From Phycisphaerales bacterium (GTDB taxonomy: Bacteria; Planctomycetota; Phycisphaerae; Phycisphaerales; UBA1924), in assembly GCA_044222845.1 (NCBI GenBank), contig JBGAMO010000004.1:509-64508 (forward strand): a stretch of DNA of 64,000 bases, written 5' to 3'. Each line of letters begins with the position of its first letter. Position 1 is the stretch's first letter. This document shows, piece after piece, positions 24,591 through 34,796 of this stretch. Both the position numbers and the translations under genes were made by a program. The notes under the pieces were generated by a model that made no database searches, was not told the origin of the DNA, and was given only the letters and a program-made list of their open reading frames with translations.

Positions 24591-26153
24591 ATGCCAACCG
24601 CCGCGCCCGTTCTGACGCCCGCACCGACCATCGCCGTGCCACGCTCGCAGTCCCGTCCATCTTCGGAGCAGTTCGACCCCGCGGGGAAGCACGCGTACTT
24701 CATCGGCATCGGCGGGTGCGGGATGTCGGGGCTGGCCCGGATGCTGCGGACGCGGGGGGCGGTGGTGAGCGGGTCGGACAAGGAGCAGTCCTGTGCCACG
24801 GACACGCTGAGCGCCGAGGGGATCGCGGTGGGGTTTGACCAGAGCAAGCAGTGGCTGCCGGAGGGGTGCGACTTTGTCGTGGCGTCGGCGGCGGTGAAGC
24901 CGGACCATCCGCAGATGCTGGAGGCGGAGCGGCGTGGGATTCCCATCTATCTATATGCCGAGGCGCTGGGCAAGAGCATGATCGGCAGCACGGGCGTGGC
25001 GGTGGCGGGGACGCACGGCAAGAGCACGACGACGGCGATGCTGGGGTGCGCCCTGACAGATGCCGGACTCGATCCGAGTGTGATCGTGGGAGCAACGAGC
25101 CATCAGTTGGTGAGCGGGTGTCTCAAACCGCTCGCGTCGGTCGCGGCGGGGTTCCGGCTGGGATCGCCGGTGATCCCCACCGGGGAGCAGGCGGGCCGGC
25201 CGGGTGTGCTGGTGGCGGAGGCGTGCGAGTACAACCGGTCGTTCCACAACTTCCGGCCGACGGTGGCGTGCATCAGCGGCGTGGAGGCGGACCATCTGGA
25301 TGTGTACGGGACGCTGGACGCGGTGGTGGAGAGCTTCCACGAGTTTGCGCAGTTGCTGCCGCCGGCGGCGGAGGGGGGCTACCTGCTGATCGGGCATGAC
25401 GGGGCGCACCGGCGCGAGGTGACGGCGGGGCTGGACTGCGCGGTGGAGACGATCGGGTTTTCTCCGGCGGCGGATTGGGTGGTGGGGTACGACGCTTCGA
25501 CGCGGGGCGTGACGATTTCACGCCGCGGACGGGTGGAGGCCAAGTGGACGAACACGGTGGCGGGTGCTCACAACGCGGTGAACGCGGCGAATGCGTTCGT
25601 GCTGGCGCGGCGGCTGGGGGCGGACCCCGAGCGGCTCGCGGCGAGCCTGTCGCGGTTCTCTGGGATTGATCGGCGGATGCAGTTGCTGGGCGAGCGGCCG
25701 GTGCCGGGGGGCACGGTGCGGGTGATCGATGACTACGGGCACCACCCCACCGAGATCGAGGTGACGCTGCGGGCGCTGCGCGAGGCCGAAGCGCCCGAGA
25801 AACGCGGGGGGCGGCTGATCTGCGTCTTCCAGCCGCACCAGCACAGCCGCACGCGGCACCTGCTCGAGGAGTTCGCCGCGAGCTTCTCGCACGCGGACGT
25901 GGTGATCGTGCCGCACATTTACTTCGTGCGCGACAGCCTGGAAGAGAAGCACAAGGTGACATCGGCGGACCTGGTGGACCGCCTGCGGGAGAAGGGCGTG
26001 CGGGCGATGCACCTGTACCCGTTCGAGGCGATCATCGAGCAGCTCGAGACGATGTGCCGCGCGGGCGAGGTGGTGGTGACGATGGGGGCTGGGGATGTGT
26101 GGAAGGTGGCGAAGGGGTATCTGGAGGCGGGGGAGGGGATGCCGCGTGGTTGA
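24591..26153 (+). CDS. murC: UDP-N-acetylmuramate--L-alanine ligase
   Basis: Internal ATG 24591. HAYFIGIGGCGMSGLARML, GTHGKSTTTAML and DDYGHHPTEI. Confidence 0.9.
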   Translation: MPTAAPVLTPAPTIAVPRSQSRPSSEQFDPAGKHAYFIGIGGCGMSGLARMLRTRGAVVSGSDKEQSCATDTLSAEGIAVGFDQSKQWLPEGCDFVVASAAVKPDHPQMLEAERRGIPIYLYAEALGKSMIGSTGVAVAGTHGKSTTTAMLGCALTDAGLDPSVIVGATSHQLVSGCLKPLASVAAGFRLGSPVIPTGEQAGRPGVLVAEACEYNRSFHNFRPTVACISGVEADHLDVYGTLDAVVESFHEFAQLLPPAAEGGYLLIGHDGAHRREVTAGLDCAVETIGFSPAADWVVGYDASTRGVTISRRGRVEAKWTNTVAGAHNAVNAANAFVLARRLGADPERLAASLSRFSGIDRRMQLLGERPVPGGTVRVIDDYGHHPTEIEVTLRALREAEAPEKRGGRLICVFQPHQHSRTRHLLEEFAASFSHADVVIVPHIYFVRDSLEEKHKVTSADLVDRLREKGVRAMHLYPFEAIIEQLETMCRAGEVVVTMGAGDVWKVAKGYLEAGEGMPRG

Positions 26154-26178
26154 TTGGGGGGGGAGGAAGCAGGGACTG

Positions 26179-26195
26179 GGCATCGGGCATCAGGG
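26179..26195. repeat. GGCATCG-GGCATCA-GGG heptamer motif
   Basis: The same 17-mer, ggcatcgggcatcaggg, occurs at 54780-54796. It lies 26 nt after the murC stop. Confidence 0.75.
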
Positions 26196-26235
26196 AAGCG
26201 GGACTCGGGGCTGGTCCCTGGGGGGGGTTGATGCG

Positions 26236-26312
26236 CGAGCGGGGGGTTGGGTCTTTGGTGCTTTGGGCTGTTGTGCATGGTCGACAGCGAGGTTGTTCGG
26301 GGCGGCGATGCC
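26236..26312 (-). mobile_element. diverged R1 (IS5-family 5'-end) fragment
   Basis: By-eye alignment of gcgagcggggggttgg..ggtgctttgggctgttgtgcatggtcgacagcgaggttgttcggggcggcgatgccacc to the 33095-33190 copy. The similarity is weak. Confidence 0.3.
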
Positions 26313-26457
26313 ACCAGCCGAACATCTACTGCAAACGCGCCAAGTCCCGCGGGGTTCGTTCACTTCACGCGCATCGTCGGCCCGCATGCCAGAAGCCGAC
26401 ATTGTTCAACTCCCGAGTTGCCCGCGTCGCTTGATGTGCGCAGAACGCAGCCGGGTG

Positions 26458-27285
26458 TCAGAGAGTATCGACATCAGAGGTCTTCTCATCTCCGCGGTTT
26501 CGCCCGGGCTCCACAAAGACGGCGACTTCAAGACACTTTCCGCACTCCGCACAAGTACTTCTGCCATCGCCGGCGGGGTAGCCGCAGTTCCAGCACTTGC
26601 CCACAAGCACTCGCCACCATGCGTGCAAACACGCCAACACTCCCACGCCAGCGGCGAGAGGCAGCCAAATCCTGGTGAGGAATAACCATAGCCCAAGAAA
26701 CGAAACTCGCCACGGCAGAGAAATAGTTCGAAGAAATGGAATACCAATATCAATAACATCAGCAGGCCCAGATACACCGTCTATGCTGAATACCTTGGAG
26801 TACATAAGGCGAAACGGAAAGCCATAATAATATATCGTGCATCCACCAGCTCCGGTTCGAAGGGCTGACTGCACTTCCGAAGGAAACACCGGGTCATAGG
26901 TCCAATGCTCCGAACGAAGTACACGCTCTAGATTCTTCTGGTGGCCGATCGTTTCGACTTCCTGCGGACACACAATGCCGTAATAGTCGTACAAATACTC
27001 GGAGTGCTTCTCGTAATACACACGGTCCTCTCGAACGACATAATGATAATTTGGGCCCTTGTCACCAGCCGATGCAGATATACAACACGTAATATACCCG
27101 GTCACCAATATGCCGATAAGCCACCAAAACTGATTTTTCAAAGCAACCGAGCAGGCCACGCGCCACCCGAGTGGTGTCGGCTTCGTGCGCCTGATTCTTT
27201 GAACGATCGCCAGAAGGTCAGATTTTAGTGCTCGCGCTCGTCGCATGGTGTTCCTGCGATGACATACTGAGTGATTCTGATCCAA
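26458..27285 (-). CDS. ZR1: low-GC membrane protein with C-terminal CxxCGY..CxxCG zinc ribbon (paralog of 29246-29848 and 32187-32798)
   Basis: N-terminal TM FWWLIGILVTGYI, motif YYGFPFRLMY, second TM LWLFLTRIWLPLAAGVGVLACL, then CWNCGYPAGDGRSTCAECG. The start may be the internal ATG 27246. Confidence 0.65.
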   Translation of the reverse strand: MDQNHSVCHRRNTMRRARALKSDLLAIVQRIRRTKPTPLGWRVACSVALKNQFWWLIGILVTGYITCCISASAGDKGPNYHYVVREDRVYYEKHSEYLYDYYGIVCPQEVETIGHQKNLERVLRSEHWTYDPVFPSEVQSALRTGAGGCTIYYYGFPFRLMYSKVFSIDGVSGPADVIDIGIPFLRTISLPWRVSFLGLWLFLTRIWLPLAAGVGVLACLHAWWRVLVGKCWNCGYPAGDGRSTCAECGKCLEVAVFVEPGRNRGDEKTSDVDTL

Positions 27286-27333
27286 TCTGAGGCATGTTCA
27301 AACATCAACAATTGGAGTTCGCTCTTCACGTTT

Positions 27334-27866
27334 AATTCGCCTTTGGAATCTCTGAATAACTGCGCAGCCGCGCCGAGTGAATGAGCGGATCCGGTGTGGG
27401 TCGGACGGCCGGGCATCGGGCAGGCGTGATCGTGGCGGTGCGAAGGAACGGATCGATGGGGGGTGCGGACGCGGCGTTGGCGGGGCTGGGCGGCCTGCGC
27501 TTGGCGGCATCGCTCACGCGGCTTTACGCGCTCGGACCCTGCGGCGACCTGGCCTTTGTCATGATGGCGGTGTTCAGTGGCGGCACCTGCACGGAGGTTC
27601 TGCGGGGTGTGTTGCCGCGGCTGTTGAGTGGGGTTGCTCGATGCGCTCCACCCGCGCGTGTGGCGGTGCGACGAGGCGCGGCGGCTTGTGGGCTTGCCGG
27701 CGCTGGTGGTGGAGATGGTGTGGCCCCGGTGCTTCATCCTTATCCGCCGCGATTGAACCGCCGCGCGGAGTGGGCGGCGGGGGTGGTGCTGGGTCAGCGT
27801 AGGGCGGGGGTGGGGTTCGTGAACGGGGCACGTGCCTCCCCAGGGCTAGGGGGGCATGCCACCCGG
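27334..27866 (-). repeat. module A: about 530-bp high-GC repeat carrying decayed RHS-core-end sequence
   Basis: Aligns along its whole length with 29860-30384, roughly 85-90% by eye, with 1-nt and about 5-nt indels. The right part (from ctggtggtggagatgg) is also shared with modules C, D and E. Confidence 0.75.
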
Positions 27867-27971
27867 CGTGGGCTGAACTGCTCCGCAGAACCGCGGACCA
27901 CCAGCATCGCAACGGCGCTTCCGATGCCAGCCGACGAAGAGGCGGCACCAACTCCGCATAGCGATGTCGTG

Positions 27972-28334
27972 CTAGCGATCTGTCTCTTGAACGGGACAAT
28001 ACACACTCCATTCCAGGCCCGGAAGCCGCTGGCCGACCAGAGAAACACAACGCACTCTGCGATCAAGTTTCTGATCACGCATCACGATCGTTGTTCGGCC
28101 AGAGGCAATTTCATCGCATGGCACCGAACACAAAACACTGCCGGTCTCATCGTAAAGCACGATGGTCACCTTGGTAAAGCGCCTGCCAGAGTTGACCGCA
28201 ACGATATCACCATTGACCACAGATAGATGCAGCGGACGGGTCGCGATCCACAGCACAGCGAACGACACCACCGCAAGAAGCAAAACTGCGATCAACACGT
28301 AGACGTAAACCATGTTTTTTCTGATTATCACCAT
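27972..28334 (-). CDS. small N-terminally anchored membrane protein, candidate immunity partner of the 28406-28783 tip
   Basis: 120-aa low-GC ORF. TM VYVYVLIAVLLLAVVSFAVLWIA. It lies 71 nt downstream of the RHS-tip ORF on the same strand. Confidence 0.5.
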   Translation of the reverse strand: MVIIRKNMVYVYVLIAVLLLAVVSFAVLWIATRPLHLSVVNGDIVAVNSGRRFTKVTIVLYDETGSVLCSVPCDEIASGRTTIVMRDQKLDRRVRCVSLVGQRLPGLEWSVYCPVQETDR

Positions 28335-28405
28335 TCAATTATGCGGCGAATAATGTCCAGCGGTGGCGGCACGCAAAACACCGCCATGCATGCAACCCAC
28401 GTTCC

Positions 28406-28783
28406 CTACCCCCGCATGAAACACATGCGGCTCACATTTCTGACGCAGTCATCATATGCAAAACACGCCAGTACGCAGCGCCCAGGCCCATGCGGACATT
28501 TAGTCAGAAAGAACCCAACTACATGATATGCAATACCGGAATGCCCCATAAAATCGCATTTGCATGTAGAGCCGAGTGACAGACCACTTTCATCGCTGTG
28601 CAAACCCGGAATAGAAGAGACGCATTCAAGCAAGTTCTTGCCATCCACATACCCCGCGGGATCCCTCCTCCCCCACCGATCCATCCCGGGAGGTAGCCTC
28701 GATGCCGCACACGATCTTGTCGGGTCGCGGGCGCCACTCGTGGCGAGCACGGTCCTTGCGGACACCCAAGCGGCTTCTGTCGA
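28406..28783 (-). pseudogene. orphan RHS C-terminal end plus 55-aa Cys-rich tip (degenerate)
   Basis: AASRLPPGMDRWGRRDPAGYVDGKNLLECVSSIPGLHSDESGL aligns with the canonical RHS core end ARYYDPxxGRWxxRDPIGYxDGxNLYxYVxxxPxxxxDPxGL. YY, LYEY and DPxGL are mutated. The sequence continues SLGSTCKCDFMGHSGIAYHVVGFFLTKCPHGPGRCVLACFAYDDCVRNVSRMCFMRG*. The frame is closed by TGA codons immediately upstream (about 28784 and 28840). Confidence 0.55.
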
Positions 28784-28807
28784 TCAATGCGTCGGCGTCC
28801 GCCCGCC

Positions 28808-29027
28808 GGTTCTGCGGGCTGTGCTGCCGCGGCTTCAGGGTGCGGTTGCTCGATGCGTTCGGCCCGCGCTTGTCGGGGTGCGACAAGGCGCGGCGGCGTG
28901 TGGGGTTGCCGGCGCTGGTGGTGGAGATGGTGTGGCCCCGGTCCTTCATCCTTATCCGGCGCGATTGAGCCGCCGCGCGGAGTGGGCGGCGGGGGTGGTG
29001 TTGGGTCAGCGTAGGGCGGAGGTGGGC
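28808..29027 (-). repeat. module C: partial copy of the high-GC module
   Basis: ggttctgcgggctgtgctgccgcgg...ctggtggtggagatggtgtggccccggtccttcatccttatccggcgcgattgagccgccgcgcggagtgggcggcgggggtggtgttgggtcagcgtagggcggaggtgg matches modules A and B. Confidence 0.65.
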
Positions 29028-29130
29028 AGGGGAGTTGTTGCGACTGGTGTGAGGCGGGTGGGGGCTGGAGGTTTGGAGTCGCTGATGCCGGGGGCGGCAG
29101 CCCCACTCCCGGCACCCCTCCGCTGTTGTG

Positions 29131-29200
29131 GGGCGGGGGCGGCTTTGTACGTTCGGCGTGGAGAATGTGCGGGGCGGCGACATGAGATGGAATGGATGCG
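29131..29200 (-). mobile_element. R1 (IS5-family 5'-end) fragment
   Basis: gggcgggggcggctttgtacgttcggcgtggagaatgtgcggggcggcgacatgagatgg parallels 33101-33175. The minus-strand translation IPSHVAAPHILHAERTKPP parallels IPVPSQVVALDDFDAERAIPP. Confidence 0.35.
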
Positions 29201-29245
29201 TGGATGCGACCCGGCGGTGGTACGGGGCCTTTGGATGCTATCCGC

Positions 29246-29848
29246 CTAACACCGATTGTTGCCACATTCAGGACACGTATCACTTCGATTACCTTCCAAC
29301 GAATATCCGCAATTAACACAGGCCGTGGCCCCGGTAAATAAATAGAAAATCCTGCGACACCGCTTTAGCAAGGTAAACCTCGCGATCGCCAGAATCGCCC
29401 ACTCAATCGTCCAAATGACCACCAGGGAAGCAGAGAATCGAAGGAAATCAATATTATGAGGAAGGAACCTCAAGCCGCCATCAACGGTCCTTTGCAACAC
29501 CTCACAGGATGAACCTTCTGCAACGGTGCTGTCCGAGAACAGCACAATCTGACATGAACGCCATCGAAACGGCCACCCGCTTGAGTAGGTAAACGCAGCA
29601 TGAAGTTCTGGAACATCAATCATCGAATCAACCGTGACATTATTATACATTGTCTCCAAACGACACTCATGCCAAAGCGTCAAACGACCAAGCCCGGTTG
29701 TGACGGTCCCGGGCGCCCCGATCAGCGAAAGCAGATCTTGACTTGAGATACCAATGGTCGGCGGTAAAATCGCGAGTTTTGTCGTTAGCAACACACCAAC
29801 TAGCGCCAATGCTAGATGAGTTATCGTCCGTTTAGACATACTGCACAC
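29246..29848 (-). CDS. ZR2: low-GC membrane protein with C-terminal zinc ribbon
   Basis: TM HLALALVGVLLTTKLAIL, motif SSGWPFRWRS, second TM FSASLVVIWTIEWAILAIARF, then CVNCGYSLEGNRSDTCPECG. Confidence 0.65.
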   Translation of the reverse strand: MCSMSKRTITHLALALVGVLLTTKLAILPPTIGISSQDLLSLIGAPGTVTTGLGRLTLWHECRLETMYNNVTVDSMIDVPELHAAFTYSSGWPFRWRSCQIVLFSDSTVAEGSSCEVLQRTVDGGLRFLPHNIDFLRFSASLVVIWTIEWAILAIARFTLLKRCRRIFYLFTGATACVNCGYSLEGNRSDTCPECGNNRC

Positions 29849-29859
29849 TCGCCAAACTC

Positions 29860-30384
29860 AATTGCGGGATTGGAATCTCTGAACAATTGCGCAGCCGCGG
29901 CGGGTAATTGGGCGCATCCGGTGTGGGCCGGACGGCAGGGCCTCGGGCAGGCGCGATCGTGGCGGTGCGGAAGAACGGATCGATGGGGGGGCGCGGCGTT
30001 GGCGGGGCTGGGCGGCCTGGGCTTGGCGGCGTTGCTCGCGCGGCTTGGCGCGATCGGACCATACGGAGACCTGGCCTTTGTCATGATGGCGGTGCTGAGT
30101 GGCGGCGCCTGCACGGAGGTTCTGCGGGGTGTGGTGCCGCGGGTGTTGAGTGGGGTTGCTCGATGCGTTCGGCTCGCGCGTTTGGGGGGCGACGGGGCGC
30201 GGCGGCTTGTGGGCTTGCCTGCTCTGGTGGTGGAGATGGTGTGGCCCCGGTCCTTCATCCTTATCCGCCGCGATTGAACCGCCGCGCGGAGTGGGCGGCG
30301 GGGGTGGTGCTGGGTCAGCGTAGGGCGGAGGTGGGGTGCGTGAACGGGGCACATGCCTTTCCAAAGCTGGAGGCTTGCCACACG
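29860..30384 (-). repeat. module B: about 525-bp high-GC repeat (see module A)
   Basis: See 27334-27866. Its decayed RHS-end frame (FFRTATIAPARGPAVRPTPDAPNYPPRLRNCSEIPIPQLS..V*) stops on tATGtcTAAa, overlapping the candidate ZR2 start. Confidence 0.75.
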
Positions 30385-30459
30385 CCGCTACGAAAAATCA
30401 ACCAAACTCTTCCAAGGCCTTCTCCACTTAGGATGCTCGATCATCTTGCTCAAACAGGT

Positions 30460-30969
30460 TTACGGATCGGCTCTAGGCAAATAATAAGGATCCATCCATT
30501 TCCATGGGGATATTTTTCCATTGGTTGTTGCTGAAGTGATTACTGATATGGCTTGTGTTTCGTCAACGGCCACACCTTGTTTCAGGCTCTGAGTATCAAT
30601 ATATCCAATTTTCCATATTGGACTACTTACGACTTTATATAGACCTGTCGAGGAGGAATTCGGTGCTACTACTTTTAGATCACAAAAACGTACGAGCACG
30701 AAGCGATTGTCAATCACCGCGACTTCCTTAATATCAATCCCCACAAACAGCTGCGAGAGTTGGATCGCAGATCGCGGGGGCTGAATTTGACAACCAAAAG
30801 GGTCAATCTTGATGATTTGGAAACCATTAGGCAGCTGGCGATTCCACTCAGTCGGGCGAGCACAGCTGCAAATGCAAGCCACGATCATGATGGCGACGCC
30901 GCGAACAATCGCCATTGTGTTACATCGAGTTATTTGTGTGCGCATCCTTGTTTGCATCATTTTATCCAT
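30460..30969 (-). CDS. low-GC putative lipoprotein
   Basis: 169-aa ORF with an internal signal/lipobox-like MAIVRGVAIMIVACICSC. I recognise no family. An AT-rich tract follows at 30970-31170. Confidence 0.45.
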   Translation of the reverse strand: MDKMMQTRMRTQITRCNTMAIVRGVAIMIVACICSCARPTEWNRQLPNGFQIIKIDPFGCQIQPPRSAIQLSQLFVGIDIKEVAVIDNRFVLVRFCDLKVVAPNSSSTGLYKVVSSPIWKIGYIDTQSLKQGVAVDETQAISVITSATTNGKISPWKWMDPYYLPRADP

Positions 30970-31113
30970 GTTTACTGCAGTCGAGTCATTGTAAAGTATA
31001 GTTTATCATAATGACTATTTGCGATGCAACCCGCTCCGATGTCATTTTATTTGTTTTGATTTTGAGTGTTCCGAGTTCACTTGAACAAGTCCCACGAGGC
31101 TTTGAGTTGGGCG

Positions 31114-31455
31114 CTATTCACTTGCTGAATAAACTGTGCAAATCTGGTTCATAAACTGGCAAGAATAAACCGCCGTTTCGTCCGCCGAGTCGCAGACGCC
31201 GTCTGTGTTCATGTCCCCCGCGGCGTACACCGTCGGCTCCCCGTACGGGCTGTACCGCACGTACTCGATCGGCAGCCCCGTGCTGCCCACTACCGCCGCC
31301 ACATCCGCCCGCCAGTTCGGAAGGAAGTACTGCCGCACCTCCAGCGCGCCGTCGCTCAAAGAGTCCCGCCCGCCCGTGTGGTCGTACGACGAACCCGGGT
31401 GGCCCGTGGGCCCGCCGAGACTGGTGCTGGAGATGGAACTGCCCCGGTCCTTCAT
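31114..31455 (-). pseudogene. RHS-core-end-like fragment D, truncated by a low-GC junction
   Basis: MKDRGSSISSTSLGGPTGHPGSSYDHTGGRDSLSDGALEVRQYFLPNWRADVAAVVGSTGLPIEYVRYSPYGEPTVYAAGDMNTDGVCDSADETA. Codon GC3 then collapses (VYSCQFMNQICTVYSASE*). The pattern Y..(H)..(D)..GS...l.d..G..ve.Y.Y.PYGE is that of the RHS-associated core. Confidence 0.55.
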
Positions 31456-31582
31456 CCTTGTCCGCCGCGATTGAGCCGCCGCGGGGTGGGCGGCGGGGAG
31501 TGGTGCTGGGTCAGCGTAGGGCGCGGGTGGGGTGCGTGAACGGGGCACATGCCTCCCCAAAGCTGGAGGCATGCCACCCGGC
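31171..31582 (-). repeat. module D (tandem with module E)
   Basis: About 90% identical by eye to 31723-32133. It ends with a perfect hairpin, catgcctcc-ccaaagct-ggaggcatg. Confidence 0.75.
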
Positions 31583-31584
31583 GA

Positions 31585-32007
31585 CTATCGCGGGAAACAG
31601 ATTAATACGGATTCACACTCAAACTCGCGCGAAGAAGAAGTAGGGCGTGTAGAAGGGGAAGGCCGACGGGGACCGTCGGGCCACCCACGGACGCCCGTGG
31701 TCGAGTTCTGCAGATCATCCCACGCCGTTTCGTCCGCCGAGTCGCAGACGCCGTCTGCGTTCATGTCCCCCGCGGCGTACACCGTCGGCTCCCCGTACGG
31801 GCTGTACCGCACGCACTCGATCGGCACCCCCTTGCTGTCGATCACCGCCACCACGTCCGCACGCCAGTTCTGCAGGAAGTACTGCCGCGTCTCCAGATCG
31901 CCGTCGCCCAAAGAGTTCCACCCGCCCGTGTGGTCGTACGACGAACCCGGGTGGCCCGTGGGCTCGCCGACACTGGTGCTGGAGATGGAACTGCCCCGGT
32001 CCTTCAT
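31585..32007 (-). pseudogene. RHS-core-end-like fragment E with EF-hand/dockerin-like continuation
   Basis: ...YDHTGGWNSLGDGDLETRQYFLQNWRADVVAVIDSKGVPIECVRYSPYGEPTVYAAGDMNADGVCDSADETAWDDLQNSTTG..., then a low-complexity tail running through the 31661-31686 palindrome. Confidence 0.55.
31661..31686. repeat. 25-nt palindromic element (copy 2)
   Basis: ggccgacggggaccgtcgggccaccc. See 17609-17634. Confidence 0.7.
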
Positions 32008-32180
32008 CCTTGTCCGCTGCGATTGAGCCGCCGCGGAGTGGGCGGCGGGGGGTGGTGCTGGGTCAGCGTAGGTCGGGGGTGGGGTGCGTGAACGGGGCAC
32101 ATGCCTCCCCAAAGCTGGAGGCATGCCACCCGGCGCAGTGCTCCCATGTCTCCCCGGGGCCGGAGGCATGCCACCCGCCG
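31723..32180 (-). repeat. module E plus an extra duplicated half-hairpin
   Basis: See module D. A second hairpin copy, atgtctcc-ccggggcc-ggaggcat, lies at about 32146-32176, directly after the ZR3 stop. Confidence 0.7.
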
Positions 32181-32186
32181 CAAAGC

Positions 32187-32798
32187 TCAACGATGATCTC
32201 GGCGGGTGGTTTGTCCGCATTCGGGGCAGACTCCGGTTTGGCTGCGCATCGGATAGCAGCACACTTCACAGAGATGACGGCGCCGTCGCAAGGCGATTCT
32301 GCCGAATCGAAAGCCGGTGATGGACACGAAGTACACGCCGACCCACACGACGACACACAGAAGCAATCGCGGCCACTCGATGTCTACGGGGAAGATCCGC
32401 ACCCTTGCGAAGTCCGACGGGTGGGTGACGACGCCACTCTTGGGAAGGCCGCTGCTGATGAACGCGCCGTCGCGGCTTCCCACGAGATGATATTTCAGGC
32501 ATCGAATTGGGAAACCAAATGTCCTCGTTATCTTAATGATCTCAGGTGGCGCCTTTACGCCATACCCGTGGTTCACATCCCAGTTTCGGTAGATGTCCTC
32601 GCTGCGGGTTCCGCTGGACGCGAACGAACCCACTTCCGTTTGTGTCGTCCACCTGCCGATGGTTGTTGCGGCACCCACGGGCTGGTCGCCATGCAGGTCA
32701 GCCCGAATGATAACTCCCACGATCAGTGCGACGGTGAGTGCGGACATCGGGACCAGATACGCGATGGTGACGAGCGTTCGTGTGATCGATGGTCGCAT
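32187..32798 (-). CDS. ZR3: low-GC membrane protein with C-terminal zinc ribbon
   Basis: Internal ATG 32798 gives MRPSITRTLVTIAYLVPMSALTVALIVGVII. Motif TFGFPIRCLK, second TM LLLCVVVWVGVYFVSITGF, then CEVCCYPMRSQTGVCPECG. Confidence 0.65.
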   Translation of the reverse strand: MRPSITRTLVTIAYLVPMSALTVALIVGVIIRADLHGDQPVGAATTIGRWTTQTEVGSFASSGTRSEDIYRNWDVNHGYGVKAPPEIIKITRTFGFPIRCLKYHLVGSRDGAFISSGLPKSGVVTHPSDFARVRIFPVDIEWPRLLLCVVVWVGVYFVSITGFRFGRIALRRRRHLCEVCCYPMRSQTGVCPECGQTTRRDHR

Positions 32799-33043
32799 GC
32801 TGGTTTGGCCTGTTATGCAAGGACCTTCTGCGCGATGATGCGGCCACGGCGGGCGCTTGATCGTACCTAGTTGGAGTTGGCTGATCAGCCTGTGCGAGGA
32901 CGAGATTGTGCAAAGGGGGATACGGCGAGTTGCGGGTTTGCGCTTTGGGGGGCGGCGACGGTGCTCCGAGGTCGCTGAGGAATGGAGTGAGGGAGCGCGA
33001 GAGGAGAAGCCCATGGACTGCGGTCCATGGGTTTTCGGGGTGA

Positions 33044-33262
33044 TGCGGTGTTGCTGCGTGCCATCCCGGACTTCGCTGCGCAGAGCCTGCGCTCAGTCCG
33101 GGCGTCGGGGGTTTGGTGCTTCGGGTGGTATTGCACGTTCGGCATCGAAGTCGTCCAGGGCGACGACTTGCGATGGCACGGGGATGGTGGTTGCGTGTTT
33201 CTCCCACACTTCCAACCACTTGTGCCGCGCTGTGCCTTCACTCGGGTTGGATTCGGTCGGCG
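33044..33262 (-). mobile_element. R1: longest solo IS5-family 5'-end fragment
   Basis: 33044-33110 match 2306-2385, the part contiguous with the transposase remnant. 33095-33200 match nt 1-108. One minus-strand frame reads ..HKWLEVWEKHATTIPVPSQVVALDDFDAERAIPPEAPNPRRPD*, compatible with a decayed L.D..WE.I.PLLP....GRP transposase N-terminus. Confidence 0.45.
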
Positions 33263-33263
33263 C

Positions 33264-34796
33264 CTACGCGTTCATGTCGCTCCAGCGTCTGGCCATGCGG
33301 CCGAAGACCCAGAGGCCGATGGTGGAGACCACGCCAACGAGGGCGAAGGGGATCCAGACGTAGTAGTGTGGGGAGTAGGTGTCCCAGAGCAACTGGATCG
33401 CGGCATCGGGGCCGAGGTTTGTGGTCTCCATGAGCTTGGCGAAGGCCTGGGGGCGGTCGACGCCCAAGAGGGCGTCGAGTTTGGCGGGGTCGTGGTTCCA
33501 GACCTTGCCTTCGCCGAGTTTGGTGTGCTGGAGCAGGTACTTCTGGGCGAGGACAGCGCGTTCGCCGAAGTGGCCGTAGAGGTAACCGGCGATCTTGGAG
33601 CCGATGAAAACGCCCACGCCCACGGGGATGTTGACGTACCCCAGGTACAGGCCCTTCTTGCCCGGGGGGGCGATGAGGGCGAGGTACTCGCTCTTCTTGG
33701 GACCGGTGGTCATTTCGCCCAGCGAGAAGCAGAGGATGCCCAGGAGCAGGAACCAGACGCTCATGGTCCAGCCGGCGATGAGGATGCCCATGGTGGCCAG
33801 GACCATGCCGAAGAGCATGGCGCTGAGGGTGCGCATCTTGCGGGTGAGCCAGGACATGCCGACGACGCCGACGATGATGCAGAAGGAGTTGAGGGAGAGC
33901 AGTACCTGCTGGGGGATCTGCAGGCCGCGGGGCGTTTCTTCGGTGACTTTGGTGAAGACTGCGTCGGGGAGCCAGCGGATGGAATCGACCAGGGGCGTGC
34001 TGTTGACCCAGTCGCGGATGAAGTTGGGGTGCAGGTCCCAGAGTTGGTACATCATCAGCCAGAAGCCGGACATGATGGCGAGCCAGGCGAGGAGGCGCGG
34101 CTCGGCGATGCTCACGACGGTGCGCTTGAGCACTCCGATCACCGACTCGCGCTTGTCGGCTCCGCTGGGGACATCCTTGAACGTGAAGAGCATCACGAGG
34201 TTGAGGGCGGTGAAGGCGGCGGAGGCGATGAAGAGGTTGCGCCAACTGGCAGCGGAGTGATCGCGCGTGAGGAGCAGGCCGGGGAGGTAGTGGCCGACGA
34301 ACGCGCCGACATTCACGACCCAGTAGAAGATGCCCCAGCCGACGGAGGAGTTGGACTTGTCGAGGTTCTGGGCGAGGGAGCCCTGGATGCTGGGCTTGAA
34401 GAAGGCGGTGCCCGTGGCCAGGACCATGATGGCGGTGAAGAGGGCCCAGAAGTTGCTGACGCCGGGGATGTCGCGCATGAAGGCGATCATGAGGTAGCCG
34501 ATCATCATGAGGACGATCGAGAAACCCAGCACCTTCTTGTAGCCGTAGCGGTCGGCGAAGCCGCCGGTGACGATGGGCAGGAGGCTCTGGAAGACGGCCC
34601 ACCAGGCGTAGATGGTGCCCTTGTTGGCGGCGGTCAGGTGCAGGCCGCCGGGGTCGTCGGCCTGCATGATGTAGATGGGGGCCATGACGCGCAGGTTGTA
34701 ATACGCGAGGCGCTCCCACATCTCGATGGTGTTGAGCATCCAGAAGGAGCTCGCGAAACGGGTCTTGGCCGGCGACGGGGTGGCGGGGTCGGGCAT
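33264..34796 (-). CDS. POT/PTR2-family peptide:proton symporter (MFS)
   Basis: Internal ATG 34796. FWMLNTIEMWERLAYYNLRVMAPIY and GGFADRYGYKKVL (POT signatures), with about 14 TM segments. Confidence 0.9.
   Translation of the reverse strand: MPDPATPSPAKTRFASSFWMLNTIEMWERLAYYNLRVMAPIYIMQADDPGGLHLTAANKGTIYAWWAVFQSLLPIVTGGFADRYGYKKVLGFSIVLMMIGYLMIAFMRDIPGVSNFWALFTAIMVLATGTAFFKPSIQGSLAQNLDKSNSSVGWGIFYWVVNVGAFVGHYLPGLLLTRDHSAASWRNLFIASAAFTALNLVMLFTFKDVPSGADKRESVIGVLKRTVVSIAEPRLLAWLAIMSGFWLMMYQLWDLHPNFIRDWVNSTPLVDSIRWLPDAVFTKVTEETPRGLQIPQQVLLSLNSFCIIVGVVGMSWLTRKMRTLSAMLFGMVLATMGILIAGWTMSVWFLLLGILCFSLGEMTTGPKKSEYLALIAPPGKKGLYLGYVNIPVGVGVFIGSKIAGYLYGHFGERAVLAQKYLLQHTKLGEGKVWNHDPAKLDALLGVDRPQAFAKLMETTNLGPDAAIQLLWDTYSPHYYVWIPFALVGVVSTIGLWVFGRMARRWSDMNA

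What the first reader, a model, noticed from the sequence alone, without database searches (positions are those of the whole stretch)
27334..30384. About 500-bp modules A and B stay about 85-90% identical although they have no intact frame and their downstream paralogs have diverged strongly
Modules A (27334-27866) and B (29860-30384) align end to end with only scattered substitutions plus indels of 1 nt and about 5 nt. No reading frame is therefore conserved between them. All six frames give Pro/Arg/Ala/His-rich nonsense apart from short RHS-like islands.

The genes they precede, ZR1 and ZR2, share only motif-level similarity. A decayed pseudogene would not be expected to be better conserved than the adjacent functional gene. 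Three explanations are possible:
- Ongoing gene conversion.
- Use as a recombination substrate for cassette exchange.
- A non-coding role as a promoter, leader or RNA.

Both modules end 20-60 nt from the ZR start. In module B the last decayed frame stops on tATGtcTAAa, overlapping the ZR2 start region.
Basis: seen in the sequence. Interest (0 to 1): 0.6.

Follow-up and report, generated by a model that had tools for sequence, protein, structure and literature searches.

The report
Repeated heads of orphan Rhs cassettes
Modules A and B are two of at least five copies of a repeat that heads each cassette of a decayed, parent-less Rhs toxin/immunity array in a Planctomycete genome; they stay alike because cassette heads recombine with each other, whereas the genes behind them are unrelated or swapped cargo.

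Summary
On the minus strand, A (27334-27867) and B (29860-30388) are 88-90% identical, with 1-nt and 5-nt indels. The ZR1 and ZR2 genes behind them share only about 30% amino-acid identity over 115 residues.

A and B are not isolated. P, C and D in the window are further copies. One more lies elsewhere in this genome and eight in a congeneric MAG. No other genome searched has the repeat.

Each copy heads one cassette of a low-GC array between murC and a POT transporter. A copy has three parts:
- a hairpin, or a remnant of one;
- a 112-nt block that is nearly invariant, contains an ATG and shows no similarity to Rhs DNA;
- a fragment of the 3' end of an Rhs gene. It is still recognisable in C, D and P and intact in the congener, but decayed and frame-broken in A and B.

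A-B identity is uneven: 2/112 mismatches in the block against 42/363 in the tail. Block variants follow array location rather than tail type, and one cargo gene sits in a different array in the congener.

I found no support for an RNA or promoter role, but could not test it directly. This is a variant of the known orphan Rhs-CT/immunity arrays, of moderate interest.

The parts
27334..27867 (-). Module A: cassette head in front of ZR1. It consists of a hairpin remnant (27815-27867), the 112-nt block (27703-27814, ATG at 27735-27737) and a decayed tail (27334-27702).
   Evidence: The ATG frame is colinear with the Rhs-like ORF of D for about 66 codons, but the motifs are destroyed. There is no protein-level Rhs hit.
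29860..30388 (-). Module B: cassette head in front of ZR2. It consists of a degraded hairpin (30336-30388), the 112-nt block (30224-30335, ATG at 30256-30258) and a tail (29860-30223) carrying 1-nt and 5-nt deletions relative to A.
28641..29141 (-). Module P: cassette head with a different upstream extension (29027-29141), the block (about 28915-29026, ATG at 28947-28949) and a P-type tail. The tail runs into ORF 28406-28765, which still encodes an Rhs core end (GRWGRRDPAGYVDGKNL...HSDESGL) followed by a short Cys-rich tip.
   Evidence: tblastn with Rhs parents gives E = 1.4e-10.
31114..31584 (-). Module C: a perfect hairpin head (31548-31584), the block, an ATG at 31455 and a 113-aa ORF. The ORF encodes an Rhs fragment (RQYFLPNWRADV...VRYSPYGEPTVY plus the start of a dockerin-like motif).
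   Evidence: tblastn E = 1.5e-29.
31585..32188 (-). Module D: two tandem 45-nt hairpin units (32100-32188), the block, an ATG at 32007 and a 140-aa Rhs-fragment ORF. It is a 552-bp tandem duplicate of C, 93.5% identical over 413 nt, and has no cargo.
26458..27285 (-). ZR1: cargo of cassette A. It is a membrane protein with a C-terminal CxxCGY...C(A/P)ECG zinc ribbon; the probable start is the ATG at 27246.
29246..29848 (-). ZR2: cargo of cassette B, a distant paralog of ZR1. No homolog was found in the 5.8-billion-protein search.
27972..28334 (-). 120-aa membrane protein: cargo of cassette P and its putative immunity gene.
   Evidence: The role is inferred from its position.
30385..30986 (-). 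Cargo unit carrying the 169-aa ORF (30460-30969). It is 95% identical to a unit in the fabF-side array of the congener, where it follows a P-type head.
32187..33014 (-). ZR3: the first low-GC gene of the array and the third ZR paralog. No module precedes it.

Best explanation
**What A and B are.** A and B are two heads of cassettes in a parent-less array derived from Rhs polymorphic-toxin genes. The array lies on the minus strand between murC and a POT transporter. Each cassette is a head followed by low-GC cargo.

A head has three parts:
- a REP-like hairpin;
- a 112-nt block that is not recognisably Rhs, contains an ATG and is almost invariant in all 14 known copies;
- a fragment of the 3' region of an Rhs gene.

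In the congener the Rhs fragment is still intact in some cassettes, where it reads ATG ... RRDPAGYVDG ... toxin tip, followed by a putative immunity gene. In A and B it has decayed into Pro/Arg/His-rich sequence with frameshifts and the toxin tip is gone. Only the cargo (ZR1, ZR2) remains, as a probable immunity-type or membrane gene.

**Why A and B are 88-90% alike.**
- They are homologous heads of the same tail type. They either duplicated recently or were homogenised by ectopic gene conversion or unequal crossing-over.
- The conversion tract stops where homology stops: at the hairpin on one side and 10-90 nt before the ZR start on the other.
- The 112-nt block is shared by every cassette, so it has the most recombination partners and is the most homogenised.
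- ZR1 and ZR2 are heterologous cargo that cannot recombine, and cargo is exchanged between heads and between arrays.

**What is shown**
- The anatomy of the heads.
- Rhs ancestry of the head family.
- The non-Rhs nature of the leader.
- Uneven identity between A and B.
- Block haplotypes that follow the array.
- Relocation of one cargo gene between species.
- No recombinase gene near the arrays.

**What is inferred**
- Homologous recombination is the mechanism.
- The cargo genes have an immunity role.
- Whether the block also supplies expression signals is open.
For: **Copies**
- There are five copies in the window and one more in this genome: the contig C145 end (hairpins only) together with the C156 start. 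A tail-only fragment lies at C228:15020-15189.
- The congener G001 has eight copies, in arrays at the same murC and acpP-fabF loci and at one other locus.

**Rhs ancestry**
- Residues 25-105 of the D ORF match 886 proteins at E <= 1e-3. These include 2,100-2,350-aa proteins that carry PF05593 RHS repeats.
- tblastn with these parents gives 1.5e-29 for C, 2e-32 for D and 1.4e-10 for P.
- A 268-aa G001 cassette ORF starting at the same ATG passes TIGR03696, the Rhs-associated core model (38.3 bits; cut-off 32.5).
- A is 80-83% identical at the DNA level to D and C for about 150 nt past the ATG.

**The leader is not Rhs**
- The 78-80 nt upstream of the ATG give z = -0.9 to 1.2 against the matching Rhs coding DNA of six family relatives.
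- The first 156 nt of the C ORF, used as a control, gives z = 4.4-11.9 in five of six.
- 1-, 2- and 3-nt indels in the leader break any common frame.

**Recombination**
- Between A and B the block has 2/112 mismatches and the tail 42/363 (p = 7e-4).
- Between A and the G001 copy of the same tail type the block is 96% identical and the tail 72%.
- Block variants (the 5C/6C run, an AAG insertion, column 50) are shared by cassettes of one array that have different tails. Copies with the same tail type in different arrays carry different block variants.
- The cargo unit 30385-30986 is 95% identical to G001:C22:102293-102894. There it follows a P-type head in the fabF array. For comparison, murC is 94% identical.
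- D and C are a 552-bp tandem duplicate with no cargo between them.

**Precedents**
- In Salmonella the orphan and main rhs genes share 522 bp at 95% identity and recombine there (PMC3967940).
- Orphan modules keep upstream rhs coding sequence, sometimes with stop codons (PMC3150448).
- Genomes of the same family carry classic arrays of a main gene followed by orphans of this Rhs subfamily.
Against: - No full-length Rhs gene that carries the block or the head sequence was found in either genome. The classic use of an orphan, recombination into a main gene, therefore has no visible partner. Both MAGs are only 83-86% complete.
- A and B themselves have no significant protein-level Rhs similarity. 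Their ancestry rests on DNA homology to C and D and on the shared block.
- The last 200 nt or so of the A/B tail has no identified origin. It recurs four times: in A, in B, in G001 array C22 and in contig C228.
  - In A, B and G001 C22 it lies upstream of a ZR-type gene.
  - In C228 the contig ends before the next gene.
  - This could mean it is a ZR regulatory region.
- The C/D/E block haplotype follows tail type rather than array, so homogenisation is not uniform.
- Low divergence of the block fits purifying selection equally well.
Confidence: 0.65

Rival explanations
1. The 112-nt block is kept by purifying selection. It would supply a promoter and/or translation start that makes each cassette an independent expression unit, so that the cargo or immunity gene behind a dead toxin fragment is still expressed. 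On this view the rest of A and B is a decaying 5' UTR. This rival can hold together with the recombination explanation.
For: - The block is 91-98% identical among 11 copies with at least four tail types in two species, while the tails are 72-88% identical.
- It always ends in the same ATG, from which intact cassette ORFs start. Gene callers use that ATG for the two G001 proteins.
- It is not Rhs sequence, unlike classic orphans, which usually lack initiation signals (PMC3967940, PMC3150448).
- Salmonella orphan rhs elements are expressed on their own as toxin-antitoxin-like modules (PMC7043789).
Against: - No sigma-70-like site lies inside any module on the coding strand.
- The AAGGA motif abuts the ATG, which is too close for a normal Shine-Dalgarno spacing (seen directly in the sequence).
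- The distance from the block to the cargo start varies from about 180 to 490 nt.
- Block variants track array position, as expected for conversion and not needed under selection.
- The element is confined to two genomes.
Confidence: 0.25
2. The heads are attachment sites of an integron-like or rAID-like system. A site-specific recombinase encoded elsewhere would insert and excise cassettes at the block.
For: - The arrays consist of co-oriented low-GC cassettes 0.55-2.5 kb long, separated by a conserved repeat.
- Cargo includes a TacA/GNAT toxin-antitoxin pair and ORFan genes, as in chromosomal integrons.
- rAID-1 clusters also show skewed GC and repetitive intergenic sequences (10.1101/471110).
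Against: - No tyrosine recombinase (PF00589) lies on the window's contig. The nearest one to any G001 array is about 27 kb away.
- The block is strongly C-rich on one strand and has no attC-like imperfect palindrome. Fold z-scores are near 0 on both strands.
- Both borders of the block are ragged among copies, unlike precise site-specific junctions.
Confidence: 0.05
3. The modules encode a structured non-coding RNA (an sRNA, a riboswitch-like leader or an antisense regulator of the ZR genes).
For: - The sequence is conserved without a conserved frame.
- A GC-rich 7-bp stem (CCGCCGC/GCGGCGG), with a second GCGGCGG copy 7 nt downstream, could form alternative pairings (seen in the sequence).
Against: - No Rfam match at E <= 1.
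- Folding energies are not better than shuffles on either strand (z = -0.49 to +0.77).
- With 14 near-identical copies no covariation can be measured.
- The element is restricted to two genomes.
Confidence: 0.03
4. A and B are real protein-coding genes whose frames are broken only by assembly or sequencing errors.
For: The ATG frame is open for 170 aa in A and 145 aa in B, and the two indels sum to 6 nt.
Against: - On this C-rich, 70% GC strand open frames of this length are expected by chance. My estimate from base composition is about 1.4% stop codons per codon.
- The translations are Arg/Pro/His-rich, with every Rhs motif replaced (YD to HR, PYGEP to DKGQ).
- Differences between A and B in the shared frame are mostly non-synonymous (read from the alignment).
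- Neither translation has a family or homolog match.
Confidence: 0.02

Closest known systems
Orphan rhs-CT/rhsI (and cdiA-CT/cdiI) modules downstream of main rhs genes in Enterobacteria (Poole 2011, PMC3150448; Koskiniemi 2014, PMC3967940)
   Same: - Tandem, co-oriented cassettes, each starting with a few hundred bp of conserved rhs 3' core sequence followed by variable toxin tip and immunity genes.
- The retained core piece may carry stops.
- The homology block is of similar size (522 bp at 95% identity in Salmonella LT2) and is the substrate for homologous recombination.
- Cargo is shuffled between strains.
   Different: - No main rhs gene lies next to the arrays, and none with this head was found in either genome.
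- All heads share one identical junction to a non-Rhs 112-nt leader with an ATG. Classic orphans have independent truncation points and lack start signals.
- Most toxin tips are lost.
- Cargo includes a zinc-ribbon membrane-protein family and a TacA/GNAT toxin-antitoxin pair.
- The host is a Planctomycete, and the arrays sit at murC and acpP-fabF.
Tandem immunity-gene arrays that evolve by homologous recombination between paralogues, such as T7SS esaG/tsaI strings (PMC9484751), and orphan immunity islands
   Same: - Arrays of immunity-type genes without a cognate toxin.
- They are shaped by recombination between repeated homologous stretches.
- Gene content differs between close relatives.
   Different: In those arrays the recombining homology lies in the immunity genes themselves. 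Here it lies in a non-coding or pseudogenic head in front of unrelated cargo.
rAID-1 clusters of Bacteroidales and chromosomal integrons (10.1101/471110)
   Same: - Low-GC, co-oriented cassettes separated by repetitive intergenic sequence.
- Cargo consists of orphan immunity genes, toxin-antitoxin genes and ORFan genes.
- The structure suggests ongoing gene acquisition.
   Different: - No adjacent tyrosine recombinase.
- The repeat is not palindromic or attC-like.
- The junctions are ragged.
- The repeat is visibly derived from a toxin gene.

Membership tests
Rhs-family polymorphic toxin, C-terminal core region (head family as a whole) | Match to the Rhs-associated core domain (TIGR03696), ending in a DPxGL-type motif before a variable tip | tested here: met
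   - The G001 cassette ORF with the same leader and ATG scores 38.3 bits against a cut-off of 32.5.
- The tail of P encodes GRWGRRDPAGYVDGKNL..HSDESGL and matches Rhs parents at E = 1.4e-10 by tblastn. It does not reach the HMM threshold.
Rhs-family polymorphic toxin, C-terminal core region (modules A and B themselves) | Protein-level similarity to Rhs or YD-repeat sequence in some frame | tested here: not met
   - The best tblastn E-values are 0.05 for A and 0.013 for B, both on low-complexity Pro-rich stretches.
- There is no Pfam or NCBIfam hit.
- The link to Rhs is DNA homology only: 80-83% identity to D and C reaching about 150 nt past the ATG.
Orphan rhs-CT/rhsI array | Tandem cassettes, each with a fragment of conserved rhs core sequence followed by a variable region and a small downstream gene | tested here: met
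   Five heads with low-GC downstream ORFs lie on one strand. C, D and P retain Rhs sequence.
Orphan rhs-CT/rhsI array | Location downstream of a full-length main rhs gene that shares the homology block | tested here: not met
   - The neighbours upstream of the arrays are a POT transporter with a dispersed repeat (window) and acpP-fabF (C145; G001 C22).
- No long open frame carrying the head was found in G000 or G001.
- The genomes are 83% and 86% complete, so absence is not proven.
Orphan rhs-CT/rhsI array | The downstream small genes neutralise the cognate toxin tips (immunity function) | not testable with these tools
   The role is inferred from position only. ZR2 has no detectable homologs.
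Integron / rAID-1-type cassette array | An adjacent tyrosine recombinase gene | tested here: not met
   A PF00589 search found no hit on the window's contig. The nearest hit to a G001 array is about 27 kb away.
Integron / rAID-1-type cassette array | Cassette-end repeats that fold as imperfect palindromes (attC-like) with precise junctions | tested here: not met
   The block is strand-asymmetric (C-rich). Fold z-scores are -0.49 to +0.77. The borders are ragged among 14 copies.
Known structured RNA family | A covariance-model match in Rfam | tested here: not met
   No match at E <= 1 in 26000-33500 on either strand.

The most novel reading that the evidence does not exclude
The 112-nt non-Rhs block with its ATG may be a self-propagating cassette head. 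On this reading, one founder junction between a foreign leader and an Rhs 3' fragment has spread to at least three chromosomal loci in this lineage (murC, acpP-fabF and one more in the congener).

It would do two things:
- supply the expression signals for each cassette;
- act as portable homology by which toxin tips, immunity genes, zinc-ribbon membrane genes and toxin-antitoxin pairs are captured and shuffled.

No main rhs gene and no recombinase would be needed. This would be an integrase-free functional analogue of an integron, driven by homologous recombination.
Probability: 0.2. Interest if true: 0.6.

Novelty: new variant of a known kind. Interest (0 to 1): 0.35.

Why it matters
- It resolves the apparent paradox of a pseudogene that is better conserved than the gene behind it. 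The explanation is ordinary: homologous cassette heads recombine and heterologous cargo does not.
- It extends orphan Rhs cassette arrays to Planctomycetota.
- It shows an unusual form of such an array. There is no parent gene, and every cassette shares one junction to a short, almost invariant, non-Rhs leader with a start codon.
- If that leader drives expression or capture of cargo, it would be a simple recombinase-free way of building immunity or defence gene arrays.
- Otherwise the locus is a decaying relic that is useful mainly for annotation. The open frames in A and B should not be called as genes.

Tried and rejected
**Function of the modules**
- Pfam and NCBIfam gave no family for the A and B open frames. 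Among the other module frames, C had only one weak sub-threshold Pfam match, PF08684 at E = 0.23.
- Rfam gave no match for the whole array on either strand.
- RNA folding of the head plus block on both strands gave z-scores near 0.
- The sigma-70 and terminator scan placed nothing inside the modules on the coding strand.
- I considered a G-quadruplex on the G-rich strand as a recombination initiator. No canonical motif lies in any module.
- The leader could have been diverged Rhs coding sequence. I rejected this because it shows no DNA similarity to the matching region of six relatives, whereas the control did.

**Integron or attC reading**
- No R'/R'' consensus, no palindrome and no recombinase were found.

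**Searches for further copies and relatives**
- An exact-pattern scan for more copies found none in the JGI metagenome contigs. Among the genome representatives only the congener had it.
- ZR2 had no homologs in the large protein search.
- tblastn and the genome search found no parent gene.

**Not possible**
No read-level or RNA evidence could be obtained.
Full report
**Orientation and context**

The window is contig C28 of an 83%-complete MAG with about 68% GC. Its only close relative among the genomes searched is titled 'MAG: Planctomycetota bacterium isolate SZAS-3'.

All genes relevant to the finding lie on the minus strand. Going down in coordinates the order is:
- POT-type transporter (34871-33264)
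- a dispersed repeat (about 33194-32951)
- ZR3 (33014-32187)
- module D
- module C
- a 169-aa ORF (30969-30460)
- module B
- ZR2 (29848-29246)
- module P
- an Rhs-end ORF (28765-28406)
- a 120-aa membrane ORF (28334-27972)
- module A
- ZR1 (27285-26458)
- the convergent murC, which ends at 26153

GC alternates between about 0.70 in the modules and 0.41-0.53 in the ORFs behind them.

**Check of the observation**

A (27334-27867) and B (29860-30388) align end to end. 473 of 537 columns are identical (88.1%; 89.9% without gap columns). There are internal indels of 1 nt and 5 nt, and transitions and transversions are about equal, 27 to 26. blastn gives 88.8% over 526 columns.

ZR1 and ZR2 reach only 46% in a global nucleotide alignment. 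Their best local protein alignment is 29.6% identical over 115 aa. That is significant against shuffles (73 versus 32 +/- 4.8), so they are distant paralogs, and the same holds for ZR3.

- The two indels sum to 6. The frame from a conserved ATG is therefore open in both copies, but it differs over about 66 codons.
- Identity is very uneven along the modules, as described below.

**A and B are members of a repeat family that heads cassettes**

The repeat finder and MAFFT show five copies in the window.
- A versus P: 90% over 219 nt.
- C versus D: 93.5% over 413 nt.
- A versus D and C: 80-83% over 220-280 nt.

A sixth copy is split between the end of contig C145 and the start of C156. The C145 end has four tandem 45-nt hairpin units next to acpP-fabF. 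The C156 start has the block, and behind it a TacA-like antitoxin and a GNAT toxin.

The congener G001 has eight copies in arrays spaced 1.1-2.2 kb. These lie at the same two loci, murC (C15 end plus C16 start) and fabF (C22), and at a third locus (C32).

None of the other 39 relatives searched has a convincing match. An exact 27-nt pattern from the block occurs only in G001 among the 185,579 species representatives, and not in the JGI metagenome contigs.

Every array begins with a head and ends with cargo. The heads are therefore the 5' parts of the cassettes.

**Anatomy of a head**

The alignment of all 14 copies shows three parts.

1. *Variable upstream piece.* This is either a hairpin (perfect in C and D, degraded in A and B) or a different 45-nt extension (P-type).
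2. *Near-invariant block of 112 nt.* In A it is 27703-27814 and in B 30224-30335. It ends about 35 nt after a conserved ATG (...GGATAAGGATGAAGGACCGGGGC...). Upstream of the ATG there are 1-nt, 2-nt and 3-nt length differences between copies, so no frame is shared there.
3. *Type-specific tails.*
   - C/D-type tails translate from the ATG as MKDRGSSISSTS..GHPGSSYDHTGG..RQYFLQNWRADVVAV..VRYSPYGEPTVYAAGDMNADG.
   - P-type tails carry ..GYAGYEWDPATG..VRHRVYLPEMGRWGRRDPAGYVDG.., which is the end of the Rhs core.
   - In G001 one such ORF is intact for 268 aa with a Cys-rich tip. It is followed by a low-GC ORF of about 250 aa, a putative immunity gene.

**Rhs ancestry**

The D ORF finds 886 proteins at E <= 1e-3. 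The matches always start at about residue 25. Many of these proteins are 2,100-2,350 aa long, and the match lies about 300-400 residues from their C-terminus. The two full-length proteins tested carry RHS repeats.

tblastn of eleven such parents against the modules gave these best E-values:

| Module | Best E-value |
|---|---|
| D | 2e-32 |
| C | 1.5e-29 |
| P | 1.4e-10 |
| A | 0.05 |
| B | 0.013 |

The values for A and B are not significant.

The intact G001 cassette passes TIGR03696. The open frames of A and B match nothing.

A and B are therefore tied to Rhs only by DNA homology to C and D, which reaches about 150 nt beyond the ATG. A's ATG frame is still colinear with D, but every motif is destroyed:
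- SSHRHTRGW in A against SSYDHTGGW in D;
- RQHTPQNLRAGAA against RQYFLQNWRADVV;
- RHHDKGQVAAG against RYSPYGEPTVYAAG.

B is additionally frameshifted between its two deletions.

Genomes of the same taxonomic family carry classic arrangements of this Rhs subfamily. In G021, for example, a 2,255-aa open frame is followed by fragments of 427 and 111 aa at about 2-kb spacing.

**The leader is not Rhs**

The 78-80 nt upstream of the ATG show no DNA similarity to the corresponding coding DNA of six family relatives (z = -0.9 to 1.2). That DNA encodes ..DERWR..PKE..GSSYID. The first 156 nt of the C ORF, used as a control, gives z = 4.4-11.9 in five of six.

All 14 heads therefore share one junction between a foreign leader and an Rhs fragment. 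This points to a single founder that was amplified, not to repeated displacement from a main gene.

**Why A and B are similar, and why the ZR genes are not**

- Between A and B the block has 2/112 mismatches, the tail 42/363 and the hairpin region 9/51 (block versus tail p = 7e-4).
- Between A and the G001 copy of the same tail type the block is 96% identical and the tail 72%.
- Between the species, murC is 94% and the 169-aa cargo unit 95% identical. The heads in front of that cargo are of different types, C-type here and P-type there, and the cargo lies in the murC array here but in the fabF array there.
- At the 20 informative columns of the block, variants follow the array rather than the tail:
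  - A, B and P share the 5-C run and G at column 50.
  - The three murC-array copies of G001, with three different tails, share A at column 50 and an AAG insertion.
  - Copies with the same tail type in different arrays differ.
- D and C are a cargo-less 552-bp tandem duplicate.
- Both borders of the block are ragged among copies.
- No tyrosine recombinase lies near any array.

Together these point to homologous recombination between heads (gene conversion, unequal crossing-over, cassette replacement). This both homogenises the heads and reshuffles heterologous cargo.

The sharp ends of A/B homology are where the shared sequence stops. They lie at the hairpin on one side, and on the other about 10 nt before the ZR2 start and 50-90 nt before the ZR1 start (depending on which start codon is used).

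ZR1 and ZR2 never were recent duplicates in step with A and B.

**Non-coding function**

I found no support for a structured RNA: no Rfam hit and fold z-scores near 0.

There is no sigma-70-like promoter in the modules and no G-quadruplex motif.

Selection on the block for expression signals remains possible and is compatible with the recombination account. The ATG is the start of the intact cassette ORFs. Classic orphans usually lack start signals (PMC3967940, PMC3150448). Salmonella orphans can act as self-expressed toxin-antitoxin-like modules (PMC7043789).

**Unexplained**

The last 200 nt or so of the A/B tail recurs in A, in B, in the G001 fabF array (fused directly to the block by a deletion) and at C228:15020-15189 behind an acyltransferase gene. 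In the first three cases it precedes a ZR-type gene. In C228 the contig ends before the next gene. Its origin and any role for the ZR genes are open.

**Verdict**

This is a real feature that is explained in the main by known biology of polymorphic-toxin orphan cassettes. It has an unusual parent-less form with a shared non-Rhs leader. I class it as a new variant of a known kind, of moderate interest.

Noticed in passing
window 32951-33194 (also about 26265-26308 and 29137-29180): A dispersed repeat of about 140-240 bp. It has more than 25 copies in the congener and often occurs as 2-3 tandem units directly upstream of the first cassette head of an array (G001 C15:73018-73587, C22:107961-108766). 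No Pfam match was found in any frame tested.
   Followed up: partly
G000 contig C156:369-1191 (behind the sixth head copy, E): The cargo of this cassette is a type II toxin-antitoxin pair: a TacA-like antitoxin (PF08681, E = 1.9e-14) and a GNAT acetyltransferase toxin. The heads therefore also carry toxin-antitoxin modules, not only Rhs-type cargo.
   Followed up: yes
G000 contig C145:27002-27185 (contig end, next to acpP-fabF) and window 32100-32188: The 45-nt hairpin unit (stem CATGCCTCC/GGAGGCATG) occurs as four tandem copies at the contig end and as two tandem copies in front of D. The same hairpin lies at C256:12905, about 250 nt upstream of an orphan ORF that passes TIGR03696. The unit behaves like a REP-type element tied to Rhs remnants. 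It probably broke the assembly at this point.
   Followed up: partly
G000 contig C228:15020-15189: A stand-alone copy of the last 170 nt or so of the A/B tail (81-82% identical), without hairpin or block. It lies directly after the stop of an acyltransferase-3-like gene and 180 nt from the contig end.
   Followed up: partly
window 28406-28600: Behind the Rhs core end of cassette P, the low-GC tip encodes a Cys-rich peptide of about 55 aa (SLGSTCKCDFMGHSG...CFAYDDCVRNVSRMCFMRG). It is the only toxin-tip candidate left in the window's array and is followed by the 120-aa membrane ORF.
   Followed up: no
window 31017-30988, minus strand: This is the only sigma-70-like site on the coding strand of the array (TAGTCA-18-TACAAT). 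It sits just upstream of the 169-aa cargo ORF and just outside the 95%-identical unit shared with the congener.
   Followed up: no
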